A program made the translations under genes and the position numbers. Below the pieces are notes generated by a model that was not told where the DNA came from, did not search any database, and saw nothing but the letters and a program-made list of their open reading frames with translations. From assembly GCF_056746865.1 (NCBI RefSeq), contig NZ_CM163382.1: DNA of 64,000 bases; one strand, given 5' to 3'. Shown in pieces: positions 22,922 through 54,432 of this stretch. Each line of letters opens with the position of its first letter. The first letter of the stretch is position 1.

Positions 22922-24229
22922 ATTGGATGAGCCAGTCAAGACTCAATCATTTTTTGAACAAATAGATAAATTTTGCGCAACGGCAGTGAATACAGGAAAA
23001 ATCGTTTTGAGCGATTTTATTTATCTTTGATATCGGCTTTATTAATTCATTTAATCAATATATTAGCACTGATTACAATTATACCTTTTTATTATTCTGT
23101 GTCATGATGCTTCCGTTATTAGCCTTTTATCGTCTTGTTTATATTTTTTGGGCCGGCATGATGCCGGCTTTTTTTTATGCCTTCATTAATGTGCGCCTGA
23201 TCACACCAGCCGTTTGGCGCAACAATCATTGATACCCCCTATGTTTCCGCTCAACTCATAACATATTGATATACATTTATAATTTTCATGAATATTTATA
23301 TTTAGAATTCATAATTCTGAATTATATTAAATAGATTAGAAACATTTTGAAATCTTTTAAATACATTTGTTACATGTAATCCTTAAAATAAAATGAACTT
23401 CATAGAATAGTATCCAAATGTGCTTTTTTTGGATAACGGCACTTATTGATATATTCATGAAGATTATAATCACAAGGGAATACATAATGAAAAGAAAAGT
23501 TCTGGCAATGCTGGTCCCGGCGTTATTAGTTGCTGGCGCAGCAAATGCGGCTGAAATTTACAATAAAGATGGCAATAAAGTTGATTTCTACGGCAAGATG
23601 GTTGGCGAACGCATCTGGTCAAATACTGATGATAATAACAGCGAAAACGAAGATACCTCCTATGCTCGTTTCGGTGTTAAAGGTGAAACCCAAATCACCA
23701 GCGAACTGACTGGTTTTGGTCAGTTTGAATACAACCTCGACGCCAGCAAGCCCGAAGGCTCTAATCAGGAAAAAACCCGTTTAACCTTCGCAGGTTTGAA
23801 ATATAACGAGTTAGGATCTTTCGACTATGGTCGTAACTACGGTGTTGCTTATGATGCCGCAGCTTATACCGATATGTTAGTTGAATGGGGTGGTGATTCC
23901 TGGGCTTCCGCTGACAACTTCATGAACGGTCGTACCAACGGTGTTGCAACCTACCGTAACTCTGATTTCTTTGGTCTGGTTGATGGTCTGAATTTTGCTG
24001 TGCAATATCAAGGTAAGAACAGCAATCGTGGCGTTACTAAACAAAACGGTGATGGCTATGCGTTGTCTGTAGACTACAACATCGAAGGTTTTGGTTTTGT
24101 AGGTGCATATAGCAAATCTGATCGTACTAATGAACAAGCTGGTGACGGCTACGGTGATAACGCTGAAGTGTGGTCATTAGCAGCCAAGTATGATGCAAAT
24201 AATATCTATGCAGCGGTAATGACTCCAAC

Positions 24230-34644: not shown

Positions 34645-34720
34645 TCCTCTGTAGTTCAGTCGGTAGAACGGCGGACTGTTAATCCGTATGTCACTGGTTC
34701 GAGTCCAGTCAGAGGAGCCA
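34645..34720 (+). tRNA. asnT: tRNA-Asn (asnT)
   Basis: 76-nt TCCTCTGTAGTTCAGTCGGTAGAACGGCGGACTGTTAATCCG...GAGGAGCCA. Confidence 0.95.
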
Positions 34721-34882: not shown

Positions 34883-36151
34883 ATGTCTTTAAACGATTCT
34901 AAAATCCGCAAGTTAAAATCTTCTTCCCGTCCGGTAAAACTCTCCGACTCTCACGGTCTGTATCTGCTCGTCAATCCGGGCGGTTCGCGCATCTGGTATC
35001 TCAAATATCGTTTCAACGGAAAAGAATCCAGAGTCAGTCTTGGCGCATACCCGCTGGTCTCACTGGCAGAAGCCAGGCAACAGCGCGACGGTATCCGCAA
35101 GTTACTGGCGCAGAATATCAACCCGGCGCAGCAGCGCATGGCAGAGAAAGCCGCCTGCTCCCCTGAAAAGTGCTTTAAAGCGGTGGCGGTGGCGCTGGCC
35201 TGGCACAAAACCAACAAAAAATGGTCGGCTGATTATGCCGCCCGTATTCTCGCCAGTATGGAAAACCATATCTTCCCGGCGGTTGGTCATTTGCCCGTTG
35301 CCAAACTTAAAACGCAGGATTTCACTGCCCTGCTGAGGGTTATTGAGGATAAGGGCTTTCTGGAAGTCGCGTCCCGCACGCGGCAGCAACTCAGCAACAT
35401 CATGCGCTATGCCGTATAGCAGGGGCTTACCGAAAGCAATCCGGCGCAGCATCTGGATGGCGTTGTCTCCTCCCCCGTAAAGAATCACTACCCCGCGTTA
35501 CCGCTGGAGCGGTTGTCCGAACTGCTTGGCCGCATCGGTGACTATCAGCAGGGCCGGGAGTTAACCCGGCTGGCGGAGGTGCTGACACTGCACCTGTTCA
35601 TCCGTTCCAGCGAACTGCGTTTCGCCCGCTGGAGCGAGATCGATTTCAGGCACAAAATCTGGACCATCCCCGCCACCCGCGAGGCCATCGACAAAGTTCG
35701 GTTTTCGGGGCGTGGCGCAAAAATGCGTACTCCGCATATCGTACCGCTCTCCCGCCAGGCGATTGCCCTTCTGAAACAGATACAGGAGCTTTCCGGCCAT
35801 CTGGATCTGGTGTTTCCCGGCGATCATAATCCGTACAAGCCAATGAGCGAAAACACAACCAACCGGGCGCTGCGCCTGATGGGGTATGACACGAAAACTG
35901 AAATCTGCGGGCATGGACTCAGGGCAATGGCCTGTAGCGCCCTGGTGGAGTCGGACCTGTGGTCACGCGATACGGTGGAGCGGCAAATGAGCCACCAGGA
36001 GCGCAACAGCGTGCGGGCGGCATATGTGCATAAAGCAGAGCATCTGGAGGCCAGAAAGGCCATGATGCAGTGGTGGTCGGATTATCTGGATGTGTGCCGC
36101 GAGGGGTATGTTGCGCCGTACATTTATGCCCGGCAGCATAAGGCAGCCTGA
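34883..36151 (+). pseudogene. P4-type tyrosine integrase at asnT, interrupted by a single in-frame TAG at 35417..35419
   Basis: ORFs 34790..35419 and 35513..36151 share one frame and are separated only by TAG; N-terminal SLNDSKIRKLK arm-binding-type domain; C-terminal catalytic region. Confidence 0.85.
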
Positions 36152-36186
36152 ATCAGAAATAGCGTAAATCATTAAAACCGGAAAAG

Positions 36187-36217
36187 CAGATCCTGATTGA
36201 CCGGGATCTGTTTTTTT
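36187..36217 (+). terminator. Rho-independent terminator after the integrase gene
   Basis: CAGATCC...GGGATCTG hairpin followed by TTTTTTT. Confidence 0.7.
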
Positions 36218-36320
36218 GTATTGAGAGGTATTGTCGCTGTTTTTGTTATTATTAATTGGGAAGCACCGAAAATTATTCCAGTAGAATATTTGCAGTCGAT
36301 TGCCTATTAATAAATGCATT

Positions 36321-36660
36321 ATTGATAGATAATTACCTTCTGTGATTTGCCTGCAAATCACAGAAGATGAAAACCTATCAATACGGGATATTTTCACGAA
36401 AATACAAATTAATACTCCAGAATATCTGCACCAGAATATCTCCTGACCCTATACTCTGAAACCTGTAAGAACTGCATCAGATATTCAGAAACCAGACAGA
36501 TATAAGCCTGAAATTATTTGGCGTCCAATGATTTCAGGCGAAACCTATCAATGCATCTGTTTTCAACAGGCAGCCACCTTCCGTGATTCACATGTTAATC
36601 ATGGAAGGTGAAAAGCTATCAATAATCGACATTTCCACGGAATTACCACTTAATACATCC
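36321..36660. repeat. Array of three related modules, each a hairpin (palindrome) followed by a conserved box GAAA(A)(C/G)CTATCAAT-N5-a(t/c)aTTT(t/c)CA(c/a); plus one inverted box copy
   Basis: Palindromes 36337..36366 (perfect 14-bp arms), 36506..36539, 36575..36610; CTATCAAT at 36375, 36545, 36616; inverted ATTGATAG at 36321; no ORF. Confidence 0.6.
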
Positions 36661-37461
36661 CCAAAAATGCGCCATAAAATACCGGACAATCTTTCCTGAT
36701 ACAGATTATCACTGCACCAGCTATACGGAGACAAAATAATCTGCACCCGTCCTGGATAATCTGCTATCTGCGCCAGCGTCCCGCCGCTCTACCTGTTCAG
36801 TGCTGCGCCAGTACCTGGCCCTTTAGTTTTTGGCCCTTTCAGGTCAGGCGCTGTTCCCCTTATCGCCCCCTTAACCTTTATGACCCTTTCCCTTTCTGGC
36901 GCAGCCAGTTTATTTGGAAATGCTCCATGACAGTCTGCACCAGACTGTATTTTCACCACAGGATAACAATCACAAAGTGCAAAAAATAACATGAAGCACC
37001 GAAGATTCTTAATTCATATGAAGCAGGTTATTATGCCAAAAACCGTCGCAGCATTTTTATAAAATCATGAGGCATCCTGAGACCATATAATATATGTCAC
37101 AGGATACGGAAAAACACAGAGAGAATTATTCAGATATAACCCTGTGCCAGAATTAATGTGATGCCCCGGTGAATTTACATTTTAAAATTTTCCCAGCCCT
37201 GTAGTATTGGTAAAAATGATTGAAACACCTGTTATTAACAGAGAGCATTTCGTGTGATTACAGGGGTAATCACTATAATATTCCGACAAACTATATTGGT
37301 TAAGCAGGAGAATCTGATCTGTTGATATTTATTCGTCATGCTGTAACGATATTTTCACAATATAAACCCGTTCGCCCCCTGCGCCAGATCCGGAACATAG
37401 GGTACGATAAATCGCTGTCGTTACGCAGTAACGTACTATTTTGCGACATTCATGAATTCAG

Positions 37462-38346
37462 TTATTCCTCCCTCCAGCGGTATCCATACACCTGTTTCAC
37501 CCAGCGACCGCGACCGTCGCCATGACCCAGATCCGTCGCCGTCAGCGCCAGGGATTCCTTTTCGCTGAATCCCTGCGCCAGATAATGGCGGATCGCATCC
37601 TGCGCCCAGGCATAGCGCAGGGAGTGAGGGGAAAATTCCCCCTTCAGCCCCACCTTAATGACCTGTTTGTGCCAGCTCTCCAGCGCCATTTTGAGATCAG
37701 GCTTGTCGATCAGCCTGCCATTGTGTCGATCCGCGACCAGTAAGGCCTTTTCCAGAGCCTTCCTGACTGCGCCAGTATCCAGAACTGTCGTATGGCGGGG
37801 ACGCCCACCTTTGGTGCCAAACACCACTTTCAGCCGGTTTTCCCCGCGCTCAATGGCTTTCAGCCACGTTTTCAGCGACAGTGAACTCTGTACCGCTTCC
37901 TGCGAGCGTAACCCCATCAGTCGCGCGATCTCCAGCGCCGCAGCCAGCCCCGCATCCTCAGCGCGGGCTTTCTCCATAACCTGCTGGTAATGTTCCGGCG
38001 TAATGGCGCGGCGCGTACCGTTGCGTGAAGCGCCCGACACTCCCAGCGCCTTATTGGTTAGGCGTGGATGCTCCACCACCTGCCTGCGTCCAGCCTGTCT
38101 CAGCACGGCCTGCAGTGCCGCCATGTCGTTTTGCAGCGTTCGTAAACCAATATCCTGCTCCAGCCGTTCCTCAATGTAGCATTCGATATGGCGAACCCTG
38201 ATCTGCTCCACCCGCTGGATCTGGATATTCAGCGCCCGTAAATGTTCACTGAACCGTTTTGTAATATGGATACGGTCATTCACTGTTTTAAAGCTGCCGC
38301 CCGCTTTCTTCGCCAGCGCCTTCATTTCACTGCTTAATTTACTCAT
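37462..38346 (-). CDS. Tyrosine-type site-specific recombinase / integrase-family protein (294 aa), second recombinase of the asnT islet
   Basis: C-terminal HSLRYAWA...DLGHGDGRGRWVKQVYGY resembles the H-x-x-R ... catalytic-Y region of tyrosine recombinases; AGGGGA Shine-Dalgarno upstream of ATG. Confidence 0.6.
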   Translation of the reverse strand: MSKLSSEMKALAKKAGGSFKTVNDRIHITKRFSEHLRALNIQIQRVEQIRVRHIECYIEERLEQDIGLRTLQNDMAALQAVLRQAGRRQVVEHPRLTNKALGVSGASRNGTRRAITPEHYQQVMEKARAEDAGLAAALEIARLMGLRSQEAVQSSLSLKTWLKAIERGENRLKVVFGTKGGRPRHTTVLDTGAVRKALEKALLVADRHNGRLIDKPDLKMALESWHKQVIKVGLKGEFSPHSLRYAWAQDAIRHYLAQGFSEKESLALTATDLGHGDGRGRWVKQVYGYRWREE

Positions 38347-38935
38347 GAATCCCCTGCAACATAAACAAACAGTCTCCGGCGTGTGCTGTTTGGCTGCGCC
38401 AGAACGATACCTTCACGCCGGAGTGGCTGGTTGTTGAGGTTTAGGGAGTTTCAGGCTGTACGCGGTACAGACTGCCTGACGAAGCAGGGGTGTCTCCGGA
38501 GCATCGTGCCCCCCCTCGGTATCGATCTTTTTCTCCTTTACTCTGAGCTGACAGCGGCCCCAAAGGGCATGTCAGACGGCGGAAATATGGCGCAGGCCGG
38601 GACTGGCGCGGCTTGCGGCGGTATGTTGTGCAGCGTCACTTTGCCCTGTCGCTGGCGCGACCAGAGTGACACCTCGTCTGGTGCAGAGGGTAAACGTTGC
38701 GTTTCTGGTGCAGGGTGACGGTCACGCGGCAGCAAAGCCTGCTGTCTTTGCAGGCCGCAGCCCGTCAATGTAAGGCGCGGGTTGTCAGCAGAAGATAAAA
38801 CCCGGCAAAGCCAGAGTGCCAGCCCGTAAAGCCGGGTAAGCATGGCTACGAAGAAGAGAAGTGGAGAAAAAATAAATGACCGACAAATCTTATGCGGGAT
38901 GGGAATTAAACTACGCCGCTTAACTGCGGGTAACG

Positions 38936-41900
38936 GTGACCTTCACCATGCCACAGGACGTTGCGGCAAACTTTACCCTCGAAAATAACGGCATTGCCAT
39001 CACCCAAGCCAATGGGGAAGCGCATGTCACGCTGAAAGGTAAAAAAGCGGGTACGCATACGGTTACCGCAACGCTGGGTAATAACAATACCAGTGATTCG
39101 CAGCCGGTAACGTTTGTGGCGGACAAAACCTCGGCTCAGGTTGTCCTGCAGATGTCAAAAGATGAGATCACAGGTAATGGCGTCGATAACGCAACGCTAA
39201 CTGCAACGGTTAAAGATCAGTTCGACAATGAGGTGAATAATCTTCCGGTAACATTCAGCTCAGCCTCTTCAGGACTCACCCTGACCCCGGGAGTAAGTAA
39301 TACCAATGAGTCTGGCATCGCGCAGGCCACTCTCGCAGGCGTTGCCTTTGGTGAGCAGACGGTCACTGCATCACTGGCTAATAATGGTGCCAGCGACAAC
39401 AAAACTGTGCATTTTATTGGCGACACAGCAGCGGCAAAAATTATCGAGTTGACGCCTGTCCCAGACAGCATAATCGCCGGTACCCCGCAGAACAGCTCCG
39501 GCAGCGTCATCACCGCCACAGTCGTTGATAATAATGGCTTTCCGGTGAAAGGTGTGACTGTGAACTTCACCAGCAGAACAAACTCTGCCGAAATGACGAA
39601 TGGCGGCCAAGCCGTAACGAACGAACAGGGTAAGGCTACCGTCACTTATACCAATACCCGCTCCTCGATAGAATCAGGAGCGAGACCGCATACCGTTGAG
39701 GCCAGTCTGGAAAATGGTAGCTCCACGCTTAGCACATCAATTAATGTCAACGCTGATGCGTCTACGGCACATCTCACCTTGCTACAGGCACTTTTTGATA
39801 CAGTCTCCGCAGGCGACACTACCAATCTGTATATTGAGGTGAAGGATAATTACGGCAACGGTGTACCCCAGCAGGAGGTAACCCTCAGAGTATCACCAAG
39901 TGAAGGCGTGACCCCCAGTAATAACGCTATATATACTACCAACCACGACGGCAATTTTTACGCAAGCTTTACCGCTACAAAAGCCGGGGTTTATCAAGTG
40001 ACGGCAACCCTCGAAAATGGCGATTCGATGCAACAAACAGTGACCTATGTGCCGAACGTAGCGAATGCTGAAATCACGCTGGCAGCCTCGAAGGATCCGG
40101 TGATTGCCGACAATAACGATATCACGACACTAACAGCAACAGTCGCTGATACAGAGGGCAATGCGATAGCCAACACTGAGGTAACATTTACTCTGCCGGA
40201 AGATGTGAGGGCGAACTTCACGCTGAGCGATGGCGGTAAAGCGGTTACTGATGCCGATGGCAAAGCGAAAGTCACGCTGAAAGGTACAAAAGCAGGCGCT
40301 CATACTGTTACAGCATCGATGGCTGGCGGTAAGAGTGAGCAGTTGGTGGTGAACTTTATTGCGGATACACTCACTGCGCAGGTTAATCTTAACGTTACCG
40401 AGGACAATTTTATCGCTAATAACGTCGGGATGACCAGGCTGCAGGCAACAGTGACTGATGGAAACGGCAACCCGTTAGCCAATGAGGCGGTGACATTCAC
40501 GCTACCGGCAGATGTGAGCGCAAGCTTTACTCTCGGACAAGGCGGTTCCGCCATTACTGATATCAACGGCAAGGCTGAAGTTACACTGAGCGGTACAAAA
40601 TCCGGCACCTACCCCGTGACAGTTAGCGTGAACAATTATGGTGTCAGTGATACGAAACAGGTGACTTTGATTGCCGATGCTGGTACCGCAAAACTAGCCT
40701 CATTAACCTCTGTATACTCTTTCGTCGTCAGCACGACCGAGGGCGCGACCATGACTGCAAGCGTCACTGACGCTAACGGCAACCCGGTAGAAGGCATAAA
40801 AGTTAATTTCCGCGGAACCTCCGTCACGCTAAGCAGCACCAGCGTTGAAACGGATGATCGGGGTTTCGCTGAAATTCTTGTGACAAGCACCGAGGTCGGA
40901 CTGAAAACAGTTTCAGCCTCTCTGGCAGATAAACCTACTGAAGTCATCTCGCGATTACTGAATGCAAAAGCAGATATTAATTCTGCAACGATTACCAGTC
41001 TGGAGATACCTGAAGGTCAGGTCATGGTCGCACAAGACGTAGCAGTTAAAGCTCACGTCAACGACCAGTTTGGCAATCCGATTCTTAATGAATCTGTAAC
41101 ATTCAGTGCAGAGCCACCAGAGCACATGACCATCAGCCAAAATATTGTCTCTACTGATACGCATGGTATAGCCGAGGTCACTATGACGCCCGAAAGAAAC
41201 GGTTCGTATATGGTGAAAGCATCCCTGGCGAATGGATCCTCTTATGAGAAGGATCTGGTGGTAATCGATTAAAAACTGACACTCTCGGCGTCCAGCCCGC
41301 TTATCGGTGTCAATTCCCCAACAGGTGCAACTCTGACGGCAACGCTAACTTCTGCAAATGGCACTCCAGTGGAGGGTCAGGTCATCAACTTTAGCGTAAC
41401 GCCAGAAGGTGCGACGTTAAGTGGCGGAAAAGTGGGAACCAACTCTTCAGGTCAGGCTCCAGTCGTTCTGACCAGCAATAAAGTCGGTACATATACGGTG
41501 ACTGCATCGTTCCATAACGGCGTAACAATACAGACACAGACAACCGTGAAAGTCACTGGCAACTCAAGCACCGCCCATGTTGCTAGCTTTATCGCTGATC
41601 CATCGACTATCGCCGCCACCAACAGTGATTTAAGTACCTTAAAGGCAACGGTTGAGGATGGCAGTGGTAACCTGATCGAAGGTCTCACTGTGTACTTCGC
41701 CTTAAAAAGCGGCTCTGCCACATTAACGTCATTAACAGCGGTGACAGATCAAAACGGAATCGCGACAACAAGCGTGAGAGGAGCGATAACGGGGAGCGTC
41801 ACGGTAAGCGCAGTCACGACCGCTGGTGGAATGCAAACAGTAGATATAACGCTGGTGGCAGGCCCGGCAGACGCCTCAAAGTCAGTCCTTAAGAACAATC

Positions 41901-42000
41901 GGTCATCATTGAAAGGAGACTTTACCGATAGTGCTGAGCTACATCTTGTTCTGCACGATATATCAGGCAATCCGATCAAAGTTTCTGAAGGGCTGGAATT
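38936..42000 (+). repeat. Tandem coding repeats of about 300 nt (bacterial Ig-like domains) within the yeeJ remnant
   Basis: Recurrent nucleotide and protein motifs (GTCACGCTGAAAGGTA..., TVTATL/TVTASM) at roughly 100-aa spacing. Confidence 0.6.
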
Positions 42001-42775
42001 TGTGCAATCAGGTACTAACGTGCCCTATATGAAAATTAGCGCAATTGATTACAGTCAAAATATCAACGGTGATTACAAAGCCACCATTACAGGCGGCGGA
42101 GAGGGTATCGCAACGCTGATCCCTGTATTGAATGGTGTTCATCAAGCTGGTCTGAGTACCACAATACAATTCACTCGCGCAGAAGACAAAATAATGAGCG
42201 GTACAGTATCAGTCAATGGTACTGACCTACCGACAACTACATTCCCTTCGCAGGGGTTCACCGGGGCGTATTATCAGTTGAATAATGACAACTTTGCCCC
42301 AGGAAAAACGGCGGCTGATTATGAGTTTTCAAGCTCTGCCTCCTGGGTCGATGTTGATGCTACCGGTAAAGTGACATTTAAAAATGTCGGCAGCAATTGG
42401 GAAAGGATTACGGCGACGCCAAAATCAGGAGGCCCTAGCTATGTATACGAAATCCGTGTGAAGAGTTGGTGGGTGAACTCCGGCGATGCTTTCATGATAT
42501 ACAGCCTTGCTGAAAATTTTTGCAGTAGCAATGGCTACACACTTCCCCGTGCAGACCATTTAAACCATAGTCGTTCCCGAGGCATCGGGTCACTGTACAG
42601 TGAATGGGGAGATATGGGGCATTACACGACTGAAGCTGGTTTTCAATCAAATATGTATTGGTCATCTAGTCCCGCAAACTCAAGCGAACAATACGTAGTT
42701 TCCCTGGCAACAGGTGATCAAAGCGTATTTGAAAAGCTTGGGTTTGCTTATGCGACATGTGATAAAAACCTGTGA
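38936..42775 (+). pseudogene. yeeJ: 3' portion of an inverse-autotransporter adhesin gene (yeeJ-like; Big_1 Ig-like repeats and C-terminal lectin-like domain), 5' half absent, with in-frame TAA at 41270..41272
   Basis: ORFs 38936..41272 and 41369..42775 share one frame, separated by one TAA; repeated VTFTLP...FTL...G.A.VTLKG.KAG.HTVTA units; homology begins abruptly at about 38924 with no signal peptide or beta-barrel region. Confidence 0.8.
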
Positions 42776-50123: not shown

Positions 50124-50199
50124 TGGCTCCTCTGACTGGACTCGAACCAGTGACATACGGATTAACAGTCCGCCGTTCTACCGACTGAACTACAGAGGA
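50124..50199 (-). tRNA. asnW: tRNA-Asn (asnW)
   Basis: Reverse complement identical to the asnT sequence. Confidence 0.95.
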
Positions 50200-50299
50200 A
50201 TCGTGAGAACGAGGCGAATATTAGCGATGCCCACCCACAATGTCAAAGCCTGTTTTTTAAATTTGAAATCGTTTGCTGAAATAATCTGCATTTTGTCGT

Positions 50300-51943
50300 T
50301 TATTCCGACACAACTGGCTTTTTTTCACACTTTTGCGGCTCGGGTCGAGGGTATTTCCATAGCCAACGTCCAGTAACCATTCGCCAGTAAAACAGCACGG
50401 CCCGCACAGCCCAGTCGGCAAACATTCCCATCCAGACACCAACCACACCCCAGCCAAGCATGATTCCCAGCACATAACCGACTACAACCCGACAACCCCA
50501 CATGCTCAACATCGAAACCCACATGGCGTAACGGGCATCACGAGCACCTTTAAATCCAGCGGGTAGCACCCATGAGGCGGACCAAATAGGCATAAATAAA
50601 GCATTTAGCCAAATCAGAATCACAACGACATGTTTAACCTGTGGATCCTGGGTGTAAAACGATGCCATAACCCCGGCAAAGGGAGCCGTTAGCCAGGCGA
50701 TGGCCGTTAATCCAAGAGTGGAAAGCCAGAACACATGCCGCAACTGAATCTCTGCTTGCGCTATCTGCCCTACCCCCAACCTTCGGCCTGTAATGATCGT
50801 AGAAGCAGAGCCGAGCGCACTTCCGGGTAAGTTGATAAGAGCCGCAATTGAAAACGCGATAAAATTTCCGGCAATAACACTGGTCCCCATCCCGGCAACG
50901 AACATTTGGGTTAATAACCGACCACTGGTAAATAACACTGATTCGACACTCGCGGGAATACCAATCCCCATGACTTCCCAGATAATGCTAAAATTCAGCG
51001 GTTTAAAATAGCTCTTTAACGAAATCCTTAGCGCAGGATTAAAACCAATCGCCAGCACCCACAAAATTGCAACTGCGCCAATATAACGAGAAATGGTTAA
51101 ACCCAGCCCTGCCCCGACAAATCCCAGTCCCGGCCAGGAGAAAAGGCCGTAAATCAATATGCCGCTAATAATAATATTAAGAATATTCAGGCTACCGTTA
51201 ATCAATAGCGGTATTTTCGTATTCCCTGCACCACGAAGTGCCCCGCTACCAATAAGAGTGATGGCAGCTGCTGGATAACTGAGTACCGTCAGCTCCAGAT
51301 AAGTCAACGCCAGTGCTTTAACTTCTGTCGTGGCATCACCCGCGACGAAATCAATAATTTGTTCGCCAAAATGATGAATAAGCGTTGCCAACAGTACGGC
51401 AAACAACGTCATGATCACCAATGACTGCCGCGTCGCCACCCTCGCTCGTCGTCGATCCCGCTTACCGAGACTAAATGCCACAACGACAGTAGTACCAAGA
51501 TCGATAGCAGCAAAAAAAGCCATAATGACCATATTGAAGCTGTCCGCCAATCCCACGCCGGCCATCGCATCTTTTCCCAGCCAGCTGACCAGAAAAGTGC
51601 TCAGAACCCCCATCAACAGGACACAGGCATTCTCCATGAAGATAGGAACAGCAAGCGGGGTTATCTCGCGCCAGAACAACACTTTGTAGCTCTTGCGTTT
51701 AGCGTGCCAGCGAGTGCCGTGAACAACCTGGCGTAAAGCAGAGGAGATATTCAAAGCCGACCTTAATTGCAGAAAGTGAAACCACATTTCAAATAATGAG
51801 GGAGAATCAGCAAAGCTGCAAAGATTTTCGCCAACAAATTGTCTGCAAATGCAACAAACTGTTGATAGAAACGGCAAACAGTTGGGGAATTTAAAAATCG
51901 GGTTTGACAAAAGATTTTTCGCCGTTAAGATGTGCCTCAACAA
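50300..51943 (-). CDS. yeeO: MATE-family efflux transporter YeeO
   Basis: 547-aa ORF, 12 TM helices over the C-terminal ~450 aa; true start uncertain. Confidence 0.85.
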   Translation of the reverse strand: MLRHILTAKNLLSNPIFKFPNCLPFLSTVCCICRQFVGENLCSFADSPSLFEMWFHFLQLRSALNISSALRQVVHGTRWHAKRKSYKVLFWREITPLAVPIFMENACVLLMGVLSTFLVSWLGKDAMAGVGLADSFNMVIMAFFAAIDLGTTVVVAFSLGKRDRRRARVATRQSLVIMTLFAVLLATLIHHFGEQIIDFVAGDATTEVKALALTYLELTVLSYPAAAITLIGSGALRGAGNTKIPLLINGSLNILNIIISGILIYGLFSWPGLGFVGAGLGLTISRYIGAVAILWVLAIGFNPALRISLKSYFKPLNFSIIWEVMGIGIPASVESVLFTSGRLLTQMFVAGMGTSVIAGNFIAFSIAALINLPGSALGSASTIITGRRLGVGQIAQAEIQLRHVFWLSTLGLTAIAWLTAPFAGVMASFYTQDPQVKHVVVILIWLNALFMPIWSASWVLPAGFKGARDARYAMWVSMLSMWGCRVVVGYVLGIMLGWGVVGVWMGMFADWAVRAVLFYWRMVTGRWLWKYPRPEPQKCEKKPVVSE

Positions 51944-51947
51944 CGAT

Positions 51948-52023
51948 TCCTCTGTAGTTCAGTCGGTAGAACGGCGGACTGTTAATCCGTATGTCACTGG
52001 TTCGAGTCCAGTCAGAGGAGCCA
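51948..52023 (+). tRNA. asnU: tRNA-Asn (asnU)
   Basis: Identical 76-nt tRNA-Asn sequence. Confidence 0.95.
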
Positions 52024-52060
52024 AATTCCTGAAAAGCCCGCTTTTATAGCGGGATTTTTG

Positions 52061-53011
52061 CTATATCTGATAATCAATTTCCTCTTCACTGCTTTCCATC
52101 ACCTGCCGCTTGATATCCTCAACTGACAGTCCTGCATTACAAAGTTCCAGAAAGCGCCAGACATAGTTACGCTGAAGTTGTCCTCGCTTCAGTCCCAACC
52201 AGACAGTATTAGCATCAAAAAGATGCCGCGTATCCAGGCGGATTAAATTCTCTTCCTCTTGTTCGCCACTGGATTGCTCGGCAACTAATCCGATCCCAAG
52301 CCCAAGAGCAACATAGGTTTTAATGACATCAGAATCCTGCGCACTTAATACAATATCTGCCAGCAAACCTTTGCGGGCAAATGCGTCATCAATACGTGAG
52401 CGCCCCGTAATCCCCTGTCGGTAAGTGATTAACGGCCACTTCGCTATTGATTCCAGCGTCAATGGTGAAATTTGCGTCAAGGGATGATCGTGTGGAACAA
52501 GCAAACTATGGTGCCAACGAAACCACGGGAAGGCGACGAGCTGCGGGTCATTACTCAAACGCTCGCTGGCGATACCAATATCAGCTTCGCCATTTTGCAA
52601 CAATGTCGCAATTTCCTGTGGCGTCCCCTGGATTAGCTCGAGCCGAACCTCCGGGAAAAGTTCGCGAAAAGCTTTAATGACCTCTGGCAAGCTATAACGT
52701 GCCTGAGTATGCGTCGTTGCAATAGTGAGAACGCCAGACGTATCGTTGGTAAACAGGTCTGCAAGCCGACGAACATTACTGGCTTCATTCAGAATACGTT
52801 CTGCAATGACCAGTAATGCTTTGCCCGGTTCAGTCATGCCCAGCAGTCGCTTACCTCGTCGAACAAATATTTCGATGCCAAGTTCATCCTCCAGTTCCCG
52901 AATATGACGGCTGACGCCTGACTGTGAGGTAAAAAGCATATTCGCAACCTCTGTCAGGTTGTAATCCTGACGTGCAGCCTCGCGGATTATCTTTAGTTGT
53001 TGGAAATTCAC
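52061..53011 (-). CDS. cbl: LysR-type regulator Cbl (sulfonate-sulfur utilisation)
   Basis: 316-aa LysR-family ORF. Confidence 0.92.
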   Translation of the reverse strand: MNFQQLKIIREAARQDYNLTEVANMLFTSQSGVSRHIRELEDELGIEIFVRRGKRLLGMTEPGKALLVIAERILNEASNVRRLADLFTNDTSGVLTIATTHTQARYSLPEVIKAFRELFPEVRLELIQGTPQEIATLLQNGEADIGIASERLSNDPQLVAFPWFRWHHSLLVPHDHPLTQISPLTLESIAKWPLITYRQGITGRSRIDDAFARKGLLADIVLSAQDSDVIKTYVALGLGIGLVAEQSSGEQEEENLIRLDTRHLFDANTVWLGLKRGQLQRNYVWRFLELCNAGLSVEDIKRQVMESSEEEIDYQI

Positions 53012-53112
53012 GGTAAACTCCGGGCAGTTCAGATTTCCCGTTATTGTTAAAGTCTAATGCCCGGCATAACAAATAATAAAAACCCGCATCTTATTCCATC
53101 CCGATATAACAC

Positions 53113-54030
53113 TTAGCTCACCAATTGCCACTGCCTTTTTTCCATCACTGGAGAACTAATCACTGACATTAACAACTCTTTCACTGCCTGTGCCTGTGGC
53201 GATAAGTTCGCTCTGGCGGGTAAATTTAATGACAAAGAGAGACTCATGGAAGGAGTGGTAATGCGTGACATCCACCCATTTACTGCGCCACATAACGAAC
53301 GCGCGGCCGATTCGGGTAATACTGCAACGCCCATGCCGCTGGCAATCGCTGCGGTAAGCGTGGCAATAGACTCAATTTCACCAATAACTTTTGCCGTGAG
53401 TCGCCGTAGGGAAAAAGCCTCATCAACACGAAGTCTAATAGCACTGTAATCACTGGGGAGAAAGAGGTTCATTTGCGCAATAGCATTCACATCAACGCTT
53501 TGCCCCGGGCAATCTTGAGTTCCTACCAGAAAAAGATCTTCTTTCAGCAAAGCCTGACTGGATACACCAGCCACAGGGGAATGCTCATAAATCACCGCCA
53601 TATCGAGTTGGTGATTTATCAATTTTTCGTTAAGCACTGCACCACTATTTTCATGAAGATAGATAACGATCTCCGGAAATTCAGCGCGAACCGCCTGTAA
53701 TAAGGGCATGGTGATGGATGACGCAGCGGTTCCTGGTGCAAAGCCAATCGAGACTTGCCCCGATAATGCCTGACCAACGTTATGCACCGCCAGTTGGGCC
53801 TGTTCACACTGACGTAAAATGGCCCGCGCATGGGTATAGAGAATTTTTCCGGCGTCTGTTGGTGTAACGCCCCGCTTTGTACGGATCAAAAGTTGTTGAT
53901 TTAACTCACCTTCCAGTGTGGCAACCTGCTGGCTGAGCGCTGGTTGTGCGATATGCAATACTTCAGCAGCCTGGGTCAGGCTACCAATATCTACAATTTT
54001 TACGAAGTATTTCAGGCGTCTGAAGTTCAT
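53113..54030 (-). CDS. nac: Nitrogen assimilation control protein Nac (LysR family)
   Basis: 305-aa product from MNFRRLKYFVKIVDIGSLTQAAE. Confidence 0.92.
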   Translation of the reverse strand: MNFRRLKYFVKIVDIGSLTQAAEVLHIAQPALSQQVATLEGELNQQLLIRTKRGVTPTDAGKILYTHARAILRQCEQAQLAVHNVGQALSGQVSIGFAPGTAASSITMPLLQAVRAEFPEIVIYLHENSGAVLNEKLINHQLDMAVIYEHSPVAGVSSQALLKEDLFLVGTQDCPGQSVDVNAIAQMNLFLPSDYSAIRLRVDEAFSLRRLTAKVIGEIESIATLTAAIASGMGVAVLPESAARSLCGAVNGWMSRITTPSMSLSLSLNLPARANLSPQAQAVKELLMSVISSPVMEKRQWQLVS

Positions 54031-54356
54031 GTTGCCTCCGGTTTTTAAGAATCGGCCCAAGTGCCGCCATTACTTACAACCAGATTGCAAGATGCTTGCC
54101 AGTTTTATTTTGGTGTTGATGTACAAGCTAACCAACTGTCAAATAAGAGATTATGATAGATTCGTCATTGGCTCTTTTTATCTGCAGTCGCATTCACCTG
54201 CCCTATAAAAGGAGGGTATGCACCACGATGGTTCATTACCCAATAAGATTGAAAGCTCACCACTTTGTTGAAATTGGCAGCAAACAAACAAAAAAATGCA
54301 TTTCACCCTTTGACATCACCATGCACTGCCATTAATATGCGCCCCGTTCACACGAT

Positions 54357-54432
54357 TCCTCTGTAGTTCAGTCGGTAGAACGGCGGACTGTTAATCCGTA
54401 TGTCACTGGTTCGAGTCCAGTCAGAGGAGCCA
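54357..54432 (+). tRNA. asnV: tRNA-Asn (asnV)
   Basis: Identical 76-nt tRNA-Asn; upstream 27 nt identical to the asnT upstream sequence. Confidence 0.95.

What the first reader, a model, noticed from the sequence alone, without database searches (positions are those of the whole stretch)
37462..38346. Orphan 294-aa tyrosine recombinase on the opposite strand to the islet integrase
A second intact recombinase-like gene sits 1.3 kb from the broken P4-type integrase, convergent with it. It has no neighbouring cargo genes, is bracketed by the module array on one side and a GC-rich 570-bp leader on the other, and lies next to the 5'-truncated adhesin gene yeeJ. Small tyrosine recombinases next to adhesin genes often run invertible switches (FimB/FimE paradigm); alternatively this is the resolvase or integrase of a decayed element. 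The family assignment rests on the C-terminal HSLRYAWA ... LGHGDGRGRWVKQVYGY region only.
Basis: partly seen in the sequence, partly recalled or inferred. Interest (0 to 1): 0.6.

Follow-up and report, generated by a model that had tools for sequence, protein, structure and literature searches.

The report
Stranded island recombinase with EFASI leader
The gene is a real, catalytically intact tyrosine recombinase of an uncharacterised family (Pfam PF12834+PF12835) that always follows a structured EFASI leader and is a core part of small tRNA-inserted islands and some plasmids; here it survives in a decayed, immobile island remnant and shows no sign of switching the neighbouring adhesin gene.

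Summary
The 294-aa ORF at 37462-38346 (-) is real. It matches Pfam Phage_int_SAM_2 (2.9e-39) and Integrase_1 (6.7e-60) over its full length. The catalytic set R147-K179-H241-R244-H275-Y287 is present, and a confident AlphaFold model has the two-domain tyrosine-recombinase fold. It is not an evolutionary orphan. Its 5' leader holds the Rfam motif EFASI (95.7 bits), which precedes the gene in all 20 intact copies scanned with at least 45% protein identity, including two plasmid copies. The gene is a core component of discrete islands that also carry a P4-type integrase, sit at tRNA-Asn, -Asp or -Phe, and hold anti-phage, Rhs or T6SS cargo. The window holds a deletion remnant: the integrase has an ancestral stop, and attR, cargo, upstream regulators and the candidate promoter are gone. 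The islet ends 4 nt (3 intervening bases) before the intact yeeJ start codon, and yeeJ carries an internal out-of-frame deletion. The FimB/FimE-type switch idea is not supported: the predicted inversion junction occurs in 0 of 363 genomes, and homologues have no adhesin link. What the recombinase acts on is unknown. My best guess is recombination that serves the mobile element. This is a new member of a known, uncharacterised family, of modest interest.

The parts
37462..38346 (-). REC: 294-aa tyrosine recombinase gene (RefSeq WP_061353961.1, 'integrase domain-containing protein'). N-terminal SAM-like core-binding domain (residues 1-91) and catalytic domain (102-250 plus the C-terminal tail carrying H275 and Y287).
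   Evidence: ORF. Pfam PF12834 2.9e-39 and PF12835 6.7e-60. Catalytic R147, K179, H241, R244, H275, Y287 conserved in 45 diverse relatives. AlphaFold pLDDT 95.7. Foldseek hits to XerA, lambda Int, IntI4, XerH and Cre. dN/dS 0.12-0.23 across the family.
38401..38530 (-). EFASI RNA motif (Rfam RF02957), same strand as REC; its 3' end lies 54 nt upstream of the ATG.
   Evidence: 95.7 bits against a gathering score of 51.2, full-length model match. The same motif is at the same position in all 20 intact copies scanned with at least 45% identity.
38347..38838 (-). Retained 492 nt of the conserved structured leader of REC. It holds three conserved hairpins upstream of EFASI, EFASI itself, then a hairpin CUCCGGCGUG...CACGCCGGAG followed by a U-rich tract and a GGGG Shine-Dalgarno sequence.
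   Evidence: 16-sequence alignment with 75% mean column identity although dS between the genes is about 0.9-1.35. Compensatory pairs 103-154, 240-261 and 486-533, and G-U pairs only on this strand. No Rfam family covers 38531-38838.
36152..37461 (.). 1310-nt non-coding spacer between the REC and int stop codons. 36678-37461 travels with REC (also found in the aspV island, which has an unrelated int). 36309-36700 is the hairpin 'module array' (hairpin + TGAAAAsCTATCAATA unit).
   Evidence: The equivalent spacer is only about 200 bp in Klebsiella indica, Pseudocitrobacter, S. arizonae and Erwinia. The array occurs only in island-bearing genomes (402 genomes).
34883..36151 (+). P4-type (arm-binding) island integrase, a pseudogene. 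The internal stop is at codon 179 here, equivalent to codon 177 in copies that lack the 6-nt insertion at 35180-35185.
   Evidence: tblastn 95.7% to an intact 420-aa integrase. RefSeq note 'internal stop'. Same stop in five islet variants.
34645..34720 (+). tRNA-Asn (asnT), the attachment site (attL side) of the island.
   Evidence: Rfam tRNA 72.6 bits; RefSeq annotation. No second copy of its 3' end exists near the islet, so attR is lost.
38835..38842 (.). Right-hand deletion junction of the islet. Island homology ends at 38838, native yeeJ homology starts at 38835 (4-nt microhomology), and the yeeJ ATG is at 38842. About 300 bp of native asnT-yeeJ intergenic DNA is missing.
   Evidence: BLAST block boundaries against L002-L005; sequence.
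38394..38402 (-). Copy of the 9-mer CTGGCGCAG that abuts the 3' end of EFASI (-56 from the ATG), inside an invariant 24-nt block. Further non-coding copies are at 36768, 36803, 36896 and 37379. The copies at 36894-36907 and 38391-38404 form a perfect 14-nt inverted pair around the gene.
   Evidence: 15 copies in the window against 0.61 expected; 7 lie in the 3.3-kb islet. A copy lies at -56..-66 in 15 of 17 chromosomal loci. Inverted pair. Function unexplained.

Best explanation
SHOWN. The gene encodes a catalytically complete, simple two-domain tyrosine recombinase with no arm-binding domain, of the Pfam PF12834+PF12835 family. The gene and a long structured 5' leader (EFASI, and in fuller copies STAXI further upstream) form one conserved unit. 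That unit is a core module of small islands, 6.6-18 kb where both ends were mapped (tRNA-Asn islands). These islands also carry a P4-type integrase, sit at tRNA-Asn, tRNA-Asp or tRNA-Phe, and hold variable cargo: DarT-type, Kiwa, PD-Lambda-5-like methyltransferase plus HerA-type ATPase, Rhs, or T6SS. The same unit occurs on some plasmids with no P4 integrase. In this window the island is a relic. The P4 integrase carries an ancestral stop codon. attR, the cargo and the upstream regulators (isrK/C4 RNA pair, a ~153-aa ORF, Ner-like and HigA-like HTH proteins) are deleted. The leader is cut at -492, and the deletion ends 4 nt (3 intervening bases) before the yeeJ start codon. Proximity to yeeJ is therefore an accident of the asnT insertion site.

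INFERRED. In intact islands REC is the last gene in a co-oriented block that starts with a C4-type antisense-RNA region, so I infer it is expressed when the island is de-repressed, with translation or read-through gated by the structured leader. The P4-type integrase accounts for tRNA-specific integration, because the direct repeats are tRNA 3' ends. I therefore think REC most likely performs a second, element-serving Cre/Xer-like recombination at a simple site in or next to its own module, such as resolving multimers, tandem copies or cointegrates, or helping establishment after transfer. I put that specific role at about 0.35. In this strain REC probably has no substrate context and, lacking its upstream promoter region, is probably poorly expressed.
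For: Identity. Leader-gene unit: EFASI at a fixed distance upstream in all 20 intact copies scanned with at least 45% identity; leader conservation and compensatory pairs. Two unrelated plasmids share only the STAXI-EFASI-REC block. Island core: REC is paired with a P4-type int in Escherichia, Salmonella, Serratia, Klebsiella, Cedecea, Pseudocitrobacter, Erwinia and Lonsdalea, at tRNA-Asn, -Asp and -Phe. tRNA-3'-end direct repeats bound islands that each hold one int and one REC. Minimal 6.6-kb island gene set. The aspV island shares the REC module but not the int. Relic status here: no attR; junctions; shared int stop; no sigma-70-like promoter in the retained leader. Resolution-type role: two-domain architecture, and a location next to parA/parG/rep on small Burkholderia plasmids.
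Against: No recombination site, product or activity has been identified for any member of the family. I found no experimental paper on it. The islands show no replication genes, so multimer resolution may be unnecessary for them. The orientation of the REC block relative to int differs between island classes, and the variable cargo starts right at the REC stop codon in co-directional islands. Both features would fit a more active role in island rearrangement or cargo acquisition. Rfam classes EFASI as a likely trans-acting sRNA, not a cis leader (text quoted in PMC12370729). The RNA fold of this copy is not exceptional (z = -1.8). The enriched 9-mer CTGGCGCAG is unexplained and is absent from the plasmid units.
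Confidence: 0.7

Rival explanations
1. FimB/FimE-type invertase: REC flips a DNA segment bounded by inverted repeats to switch expression of yeeJ, or of its own gene.
For: A perfect 14-nt inverted pair (36894-36907 / 38391-38404) brackets the gene. REC is small and lies divergent to yeeJ. The orientation of the REC block relative to the P4 int differs between island lineages.
Against: The junction that inversion between the 14-nt repeats would create is found in 0 of 363 E. coli genomes carrying the sequences. No inverted repeats lie at the ends of the isrK...REC block. Homologues occur at several tRNA loci and on plasmids with no adhesin nearby. The native yeeJ upstream region is deleted and yeeJ is itself a pseudogene. 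REC belongs to PF12835, with only a weak PF00589 score (8.9e-4). The two orientation classes are about 30% diverged lineages, not recent flips.
Confidence: 0.03
2. Integron-like cargo platform: REC captures or exchanges gene cassettes at a site immediately 3' of its own gene. The E. coli 'spacer' is a nearly empty or decayed cargo slot.
For: In co-directional islands, homology ends within about 20 nt of the REC stop codon and resumes only at attR, with different defence cargo in between. The REC-int spacer varies from about 200 bp to 1.4 kb. In the Pantoea plasmid a second STAXI copy follows REC. IntI4 is among the structural matches.
Against: The same pattern arises from homologous recombination between conserved flanks (REC and attR). 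No repeated attC-like site bounds the cargo. In convergent islands the large cargo (T6SS, Rhs) lies on the other side of the REC block. Extra DNA in E. coli islet variants lies upstream of REC, not in the slot.
Confidence: 0.1
3. REC is the integrase of a separate small portable element (STAXI-EFASI-REC) that has repeatedly inserted into P4-type islands and plasmids. It is not a native island function.
For: Two unrelated plasmids share only this 1.7-kb block. The block is combined with P4 integrases that are only about 33% identical and have different tRNA specificities. It occurs in both orientations. In L021 STAXI flanks REC on both sides.
Against: In islands the block sits within a wider conserved neighbourhood: regulators and C4 RNA upstream, and a tight ~200-bp convergent junction with int in many genera. 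No terminal repeats or target duplications were found. Island and plasmid copies are only 45-50% identical, so there is no sign of recent hopping.
Confidence: 0.2
4. The EFASI and STAXI 'RNA motifs' are folded single-stranded DNA sites (recombination or early-expression signals used after conjugative entry), not RNA.
For: Weinberg et al. raised the ssDNA possibility for STAXI because it lies near ssb, topoisomerase and antirestriction genes (PMC2864571). The same group showed that attC sites can be picked up as 'RNA motifs' (PMC5737381). The Pantoea plasmid copy lies near relaxase and ArdC-like genes.
Against: UUCG tetraloops favour RNA (PMC2864571). The fixed distance to the REC start codon, the co-orientation and the downstream SD fit a transcribed leader. 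EFASI cDNA was amplified from vesicle RNA (PMC12370729). The islands carry no transfer genes.
Confidence: 0.1

Closest known systems
Pfam PF12834 (Phage_int_SAM_2) + PF12835 (Integrase_1) proteins, i.e. the integrases in the Rfam EFASI/STAXI motif names
   Same: Full-length profile matches. EFASI sits directly upstream, as Rfam describes. About 736 clusters at 50% identity, mostly 285-320 aa.
   Different: Nothing differs; it is a member. The family has no experimentally defined function, site or structure.
XerC/XerD, archaeal XerA, and Cre (simple two-domain tyrosine recombinases used for dimer or multimer resolution)
   Same: Same two-domain fold and catalytic residues, with no arm-binding domain. 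Some family members lie next to plasmid par/rep genes.
   Different: Only 11-19% identity to solved structures. NCBIfam XerC score is 24 bits against a cut-off of 335. There is no dif, lox or cer-like site. The long structured leader is unlike those systems.
FimB/FimE invertases of the fim switch
   Same: Small tyrosine recombinases encoded next to an adhesin locus.
   Different: Different Pfam family and larger size. No invertible element was found, and there is no orientation polymorphism in 363 genomes. The adhesin association is accidental.
P4-type island integrases (Arm-DNA-bind_3 + Phage_int_M + Phage_integrase), such as the neighbouring pseudogene
   Same: Both are tyrosine recombinases encoded in the same tRNA-inserted island.
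   Different: REC lacks the arm-binding domain and is 294 aa rather than about 420 aa. The island's direct repeats are tRNA 3' ends, which is the signature of the P4-type enzyme.
Integron integrase IntI with attI/attC cassettes
   Same: Structural match to VchIntI4. Variable cargo begins right next to the recombinase gene in one island class. Structured motifs lie near the gene.
   Different: No attC-like repeats bound the cargo, and the cargo is multi-gene with its own orientation. There is no evidence of cassette circles.

Membership tests
Tyrosine recombinase superfamily | Catalytic Arg-Lys-His-Arg-His/Trp-Tyr residues in the conserved order | tested here: met
   R147, K179, H241, R244, H275 and Y287 are present. 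R244, H275 and Y287 are invariant and the others at least 90% conserved in 45 diverse relatives.
Tyrosine recombinase superfamily | Two-domain fold: helical core-binding domain plus catalytic domain | tested here: met
   AlphaFold pLDDT 95.7, pTM 0.87. Foldseek probability 1.00 to XerA, lambda Int, Tn1549 Int, IntI4, XerH and Cre, TM 0.55-0.62.
Tyrosine recombinase superfamily | Site-specific strand exchange on a defined DNA site | not testable with these tools
   No site was identified. The enriched 9-mer CTGGCGCAG is only a candidate.
Pfam PF12834 + PF12835 family | Significant full-length matches to both profile HMMs | tested here: met
   PF12834 residues 1-91 of 91, 2.9e-39; PF12835 residues 1-149 of 149, 6.7e-60.
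EFASI-associated integrase unit (Rfam RF02957 context) | EFASI motif above the gathering score, upstream of and co-oriented with the integrase gene | tested here: met
   95.7 bits against 51.2, at 38401-38530 (-), 54 nt from the ATG.
EFASI-associated integrase unit (Rfam RF02957 context) | STAXI motif several hundred bp upstream of EFASI | tested here: not met
   No STAXI in the window at E<=1. The expected position (about -700 to -850) lies beyond the deletion junction at -492. STAXI is present in L011, L021 and L022.
XerC/XerD chromosome-dimer resolvases | Score above the NCBIfam equivalog cut-off | tested here: not met
   TIGR02224 scores 24.3 bits against a cut-off of 335.15.
FimB/FimE-type invertible switch | Inverted repeats bounding a segment that is found in both orientations among isolates | tested here: not met
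   The predicted inversion junction is found in 0 of 363 genomes. There are no terminal inverted repeats around the isrK...REC block.
FimB/FimE-type invertible switch | Conserved linkage of the recombinase to the adhesin operon it controls | tested here: not met
   Homologues lie at other tRNA loci and on plasmids with no adhesin nearby.
P4-type island integrase | N-terminal arm-type DNA-binding domain (Arm-DNA-bind_3), about 400-420 aa | tested here: not met
   No such domain in the Pfam scan; 294 aa. The neighbouring pseudogene is the P4-type enzyme.
Integron integrase platform | Array of cassettes each bounded by an attC-like site next to the integrase gene | tested here: inconclusive
   Cargo starts at the REC stop codon in one island class, but no repeated bounding site was seen. 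The spacer modules did not match STAXI or any other Rfam family above its gathering score in the E<=1 scan.
Known anti-phage defence proteins (PADLOC) | Match to a defence-system model | tested here: not met
   No PADLOC family at E<=1e-3 for REC. The cargo proteins do match DarT, PD-Lambda-5_B and HerA.

The most novel reading that the evidence does not exclude
STAXI-EFASI-REC is an autonomous recombination platform embedded in P4-type tRNA islands and plasmids. The roughly 500-850-nt structured leader senses a signal, or is itself the folded-strand substrate, and gates a Cre-like recombinase. That recombinase exchanges or captures multi-gene cargo (anti-phage systems, toxins) in the slot immediately 3' of its gene. 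This would be an integron-like system for defence islands.
Probability: 0.1. Interest if true: 0.8.

Novelty: new member of a known kind. Interest (0 to 1): 0.35.

Why it matters
For this window the result is a clean-up. The gene is a leftover of a decayed asnT island, not an adhesin switch, and yeeJ here is a promoterless, internally deleted pseudogene.

More broadly, the work ties an orphan Rfam motif (EFASI, function unknown) to one specific and uncharacterised recombinase family. It shows that the pair is a portable unit and a core part of a widespread class of small tRNA islands that carry anti-phage, Rhs or T6SS cargo. Why such islands need a second, leader-gated recombinase besides their P4-type integrase is an open and testable question about how defence islands move or rearrange.

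Tried and rejected
1. Invertible switch. I built the junction expected from inversion between the 14-nt inverted repeats and searched 5,426 complete E. coli genomes. 363 genomes hold the halves and none holds the junction. A search for inverted repeats at the ends of the isrK...REC block found nothing convincing.

2. Sequence-level nucleotide constraint on the in-gene 9-mer copies. Codon conservation there (0.92-1.0) is only slightly above the gene mean (0.74), so I dropped this as evidence.

3. Selection on REC after the integrase died. pN/pS of 0.06-0.09 between islet copies looked striking. However, the differences are confined to a 230-320-bp internal patch while the flanks are nearly identical. 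This is a gene-conversion tract, so the test is inconclusive. My ungapped int comparisons that involve the window copy are invalid because of a 6-nt indel.

4. Extra DNA in two E. coli variants as 'cargo' downstream of REC. It lies on the other side of the gene.

5. Solved structures by sequence: none for the single protein. The profile gives only XerA at E = 0.023.

6. PADLOC gives no hit for REC. NCBIfam gives only a far-sub-threshold XerC hit.

7. STAXI or any Rfam family for the spacer modules or for the leader upstream of EFASI: none.

8. A sigma-70-like promoter in the retained leader: none.

9. SD sequestration by EFASI: the pairing seen in the MFE fold is not conserved across lineages.

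10. Literature. I found no functional study of PF12835 proteins. No supplement text is held for the paper I take (from my own knowledge) to be the original EFASI description; EFASI does not occur in its main text. The ICEKp258.2 paper had nothing relevant.
Full report
OBSERVATION. The window is E. coli chromosome, 100% identical over this region to strains F11 and EC17CM13. The gene order is mtfA, tRNA-Asn (asnT, 34645-34720), a P4-type integrase pseudogene (34883-36151), a 1310-nt spacer, the ORF, then yeeJ. RefSeq calls the product WP_061353961.1, 'integrase domain-containing protein'.

FAMILY. Pfam matches both domains over their full length: Phage_int_SAM_2 (PF12834, residues 1-91, 2.9e-39) and Integrase_1 (PF12835, residues 102-250, 6.7e-60). 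The generic Phage_integrase profile scores only weakly (8.9e-4). NCBIfam gives only a far-sub-threshold XerC hit (24 bits against a cut-off of 335). PHROGs gives 'integrase' at 4.6e-12. A full HMMER scan of 1.84 billion representatives finds 736 clusters at E<=1e-3, mostly 285-320 aa, with alignments ending at residues 287-290.

In an alignment of 45 members (31-73% identical), R108, G145, E150, R184, R244, G274, H275 and Y287 are invariant. R147, K179 and H241 are at least 90% conserved. That is the canonical Arg-Lys-His-Arg-His-Tyr set (GLR, TKGG, HSLR, LGH, QVYG), and all of it is present in the window protein. The tyrosine at +7 after LGH is a tryptophan in the Escherichia lineage, so Y287 is the nucleophile candidate.

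AlphaFold gives a confident model (pLDDT 95.7). Its best PDB matches are XerA, lambda Int (core plus catalytic domains), Tn1549 Int, IntI4, XerH and Cre, at TM 0.55-0.62 and 11-19% identity. No solved structure is close by sequence. dN/dS against relatives is 0.12-0.23.

THE LEADER. Rfam finds the EFASI motif (RF02957) at 38401-38530 on the gene strand, at 95.7 bits against a gathering score of 51.2, ending 54 nt before the ATG. Rfam's description is quoted in PMC12370729. The name stands for 'Enterobacteriaceae, Frequently Around STAXI and Integrases'; the function is unknown and a trans-acting sRNA is suspected.

I found EFASI at the same place and on the same strand in every other intact copy examined with at least 45% identity. 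The 3' end lies 56-64 nt from the ATG in chromosomal loci and about 112-115 nt in plasmids. The loci come from Escherichia, Salmonella, Lonsdalea, Serratia, Klebsiella, Cedecea, Pseudocitrobacter and Erwinia, plus Pantoea and Klebsiella plasmids whose proteins are only 45-47% identical. The exceptions are a 5'-truncated copy (L006) and a 38%-identical Burkholderia plasmid copy (L020).

Conservation extends well beyond EFASI. About 490 nt upstream of the ATG align across genera at 75% mean identity with long invariant runs, although synonymous divergence of the genes is 0.9-1.35. RNAalifold finds hairpins with compensatory changes (pairs 103-154, 240-261, 486-533) and several G-U pairs that exist only on the gene strand.

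Immediately after EFASI a hairpin, CUCCGGCGUG...CACGCCGGAG, is followed by a U-rich tract and the Shine-Dalgarno sequence. One of its pairs co-varies U-A to C-G. Its loop contains the 3' strand of the EFASI closing stem, a geometry reminiscent of an attenuator. This is suggestive only. The fold of this single copy is unexceptional (z = -1.8), and the SD pairing in it is not conserved.

WHAT THE GENE BELONGS TO. The gene occurs in 500 of 5,426 complete E. coli genomes, always on the chromosome. Its neighbourhood elsewhere shows that it is not an orphan.

In E. coli O121, O145 and STLIN_13, in E. whittamii and in E. albertii it lies convergent to an intact or broken P4-type integrase at various tRNA-Asn genes. 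Upstream on the same strand are HigA-like and Ner-like HTH genes, a ~153-aa ORF and an isrK/C4 antisense-RNA pair. Beyond those lie Rhs or T6SS genes.

In Serratia, K. indica, Cedecea, Pseudocitrobacter, S. arizonae, Erwinia and one Salmonella locus the same convergent pair sits at tRNA-Phe, with a spacer of only about 200 bp (740-1000 bp in Serratia and Cedecea). At E. coli aspV (tRNA-Asp), next to the complete T6SS-1 cluster, the REC module is present with an integrase only about 33% identical. The module there comprises part of the spacer, the gene and a block upstream of the leader. In Salmonella L008, in Lonsdalea and in the second E. whittamii island the block is co-directional with int.

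Partial repeats of the tRNA-Asn 3' end delimit discrete islands of 6.6-18 kb, each with one int and one REC. The smallest is L011 13458-20040. It contains only int, isrK/C4, the 153-aa ORF, a Ner-like repressor (phrog_769), STAXI, EFASI, REC and a DarT-type pair. Cargo elsewhere includes Kiwa, a PD-Lambda-5-like methyltransferase with a HerA-type ATPase, and DarT/NADAR with a Lit-like peptidase.

On plasmids the unit exists without any P4 integrase. It lies next to parA/parG/rep on a 14-kb Burkholderia plasmid, and near relaxase and ArdC-like genes on an MPF_G Pantoea plasmid. The Pantoea and Klebsiella plasmids share nothing but the 1.7-kb STAXI-EFASI-REC block.

STATE OF THE COPY IN THE WINDOW. 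Island homology stops at 38838, which is -492 relative to the REC start. Native yeeJ homology begins at 38835 (4-nt microhomology), and the yeeJ ATG is at 38842. The roughly 300-bp native asnT-yeeJ intergenic region is gone. yeeJ has an internal out-of-frame deletion of about 3.14 kb at 38928-38932.

No tRNA-Asn 3'-end repeat marks an attR. The integrase stop codon is shared by five islet variants that differ in their right-hand deletions (window/F11, D2, XYEH3934, TUM9812, LR-45). The integrase was therefore inactivated once, and the islet has since eroded from the right, while REC and its leader have so far been spared.

A TATAAT/TGTAAT-like box at about -700, seen by eye in the alignment, lies in the deleted part. 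No sigma-70-like site is predicted in the retained leader. The islet is thus immobile, and REC is probably poorly expressed here; that last point is an inference.

THE SWITCH HYPOTHESIS. A perfect 14-nt inverted pair (36894-36907 / 38391-38404) does bracket the gene. However, the junction that inversion would create is absent from all 363 genomes carrying the two halves. No inverted repeats bound the larger isrK...REC block. The two orientation classes belong to lineages about 30% diverged in protein sequence. Together with the accidental nature of the yeeJ adjacency, I regard the FimB/FimE reading as refuted, as far as assemblies can show.

MECHANISM.

Shown:
- REC is a complete simple recombinase.
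- It forms a conserved unit with a structured leader.
- It is a core, portable module of P4-integrase islands and of some plasmids.
- The P4-type enzyme explains the tRNA-end direct repeats.

Inferred:
- REC is expressed as the distal gene of a C4-RNA-controlled block.
- It is gated by its leader.
- It carries out an element-serving recombination, such as resolving multimers, tandem copies or cointegrates, or helping establishment after transfer.

I put about 0.35 on that specific role. Alternatives kept open are a nested portable element (0.2), an integron-like cargo platform (0.1) and folded-DNA rather than RNA motifs (0.1). In the co-directional islands, homology ends within about 20 nt of the REC stop codon and resumes only at attR. 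That is compatible with site-specific cargo exchange but equally with homologous exchange between conserved flanks.

UNEXPLAINED. The 9-mer CTGGCGCAG occurs 15 times in the window against 0.61 expected, with 7 copies in the 3.3-kb islet. One copy lies at -56..-66 in 15 of 17 chromosomal loci, inside an invariant 24-nt block. An inverted copy lies 370-730 nt upstream in 13 of 17 loci. Further copies lie downstream. The motif is absent from the plasmid units. The in-gene copies could not be separated from codon conservation.

NOVELTY AND INTEREST. The protein family, the RNA motif and their association are already in Pfam and Rfam, and RefSeq annotates the gene. The window copy is a relic. New here are:
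- the specific link of EFASI to PF12834/PF12835 recombinases;
- the extended conserved leader;
- the recognition that the unit is a core module of small defence/T6SS-carrying islands at three kinds of tRNA gene;
- the portable-block evidence from plasmids.

I rate it a new member of a known, functionally uncharacterised kind, with interest 0.35.

Noticed in passing
window 36309-36700: 'Module array' in the int-proximal half of the spacer. A 15-bp-stem hairpin (36335-36368) and a related one (36575-36612) are each followed by TGAAAAsCTATCAATA and a similar ~60-nt tail. Copy number varies: L007 has one unit fewer, and some genomes have a 70-bp longer version. The array occurs only in island-bearing genomes (402) and matches no Rfam family.
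   Followed up: partly
window 36768, 36803, 36896, 37379, 37573, 37767, 38394 (and 35105 inside int): The 9-mer CTGGCGCAG/CTGCGCCAG is about 16-fold enriched in the islet and positionally conserved around REC in other genera. It is a candidate protein-binding or RNA-pairing element of unknown role and is absent from the plasmid versions of the unit.
   Followed up: partly
window 38531-38838 (-): About 300 nt of leader upstream of EFASI is conserved across genera, with three hairpins showing compensatory changes, and is covered by no Rfam family. It is a candidate extension of the EFASI motif or a separate structured element.
   Followed up: partly
window 38842-42775: yeeJ keeps its start codon and first ~91 nt. 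It then has an out-of-frame internal deletion of about 3.14 kb (junction 38928-38932) and a further disruption between the ORFs that end at 41272 and start at 41369. Its native upstream region is replaced by the reverse complement of the REC leader.
   Followed up: partly
window 37746-38065 compared with L031 and L032: Islet copies in strains TUM9812 and LR-45 are nearly identical to the window in int, spacer and leader. They carry a ~10% diverged 230-320-bp patch inside REC, which is a gene-conversion tract from another REC allele. Many genomes hold two copies.
   Followed up: partly
window 35180-35185: A 6-nt insertion in the integrase pseudogene relative to the copies in XYEH3934, TUM9812 and LR-45. 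It is shared with strains F11 and D2.
   Followed up: no
L011 1-20112 (Escherichia whittamii): Two islands in tandem at one tRNA-Asn, separated by a tRNA-3'-end repeat at 13458. One has REC co-directional with its int (with STAXI, EFASI and DarT cargo); the other has REC convergent with its int. The two REC proteins are 71% and 88% identical to the window protein.
   Followed up: partly
L021 8152-10088 (Pantoea agglomerans plasmid): STAXI copies in the same orientation flank the EFASI-REC unit on both sides (8152-8302 and 9940-10088), an arrangement that a recombination between them could excise as a circle.
   Followed up: no
L002 18153-18851; L007 17843-18030; L011, L012, L014-L019: An isrK / c4-a1b1 / C4 antisense-RNA cluster (P1 immI- or P4 CI-like) lies 1.2-2.6 kb upstream of REC on the same strand in most islands, followed by an 'ash family' ORF and a ~153-aa ORF with no PHROG match. 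This suggests RNA-based immunity control of the block.
   Followed up: partly
L008 13970-14416: Beyond the attR repeat of the Salmonella island lies a fragment of another P4-type integrase next to a second tRNA-Asn, probably the remains of a further tandem island.
   Followed up: no
window 14598-14684, 23086-23175, 50127-54429: Ordinary chromosomal RNA genes: DsrA, rseX and three more tRNA-Asn genes (asnW/U/V region). These are consistent with the known E. coli map and are not part of the finding.
   Followed up: no
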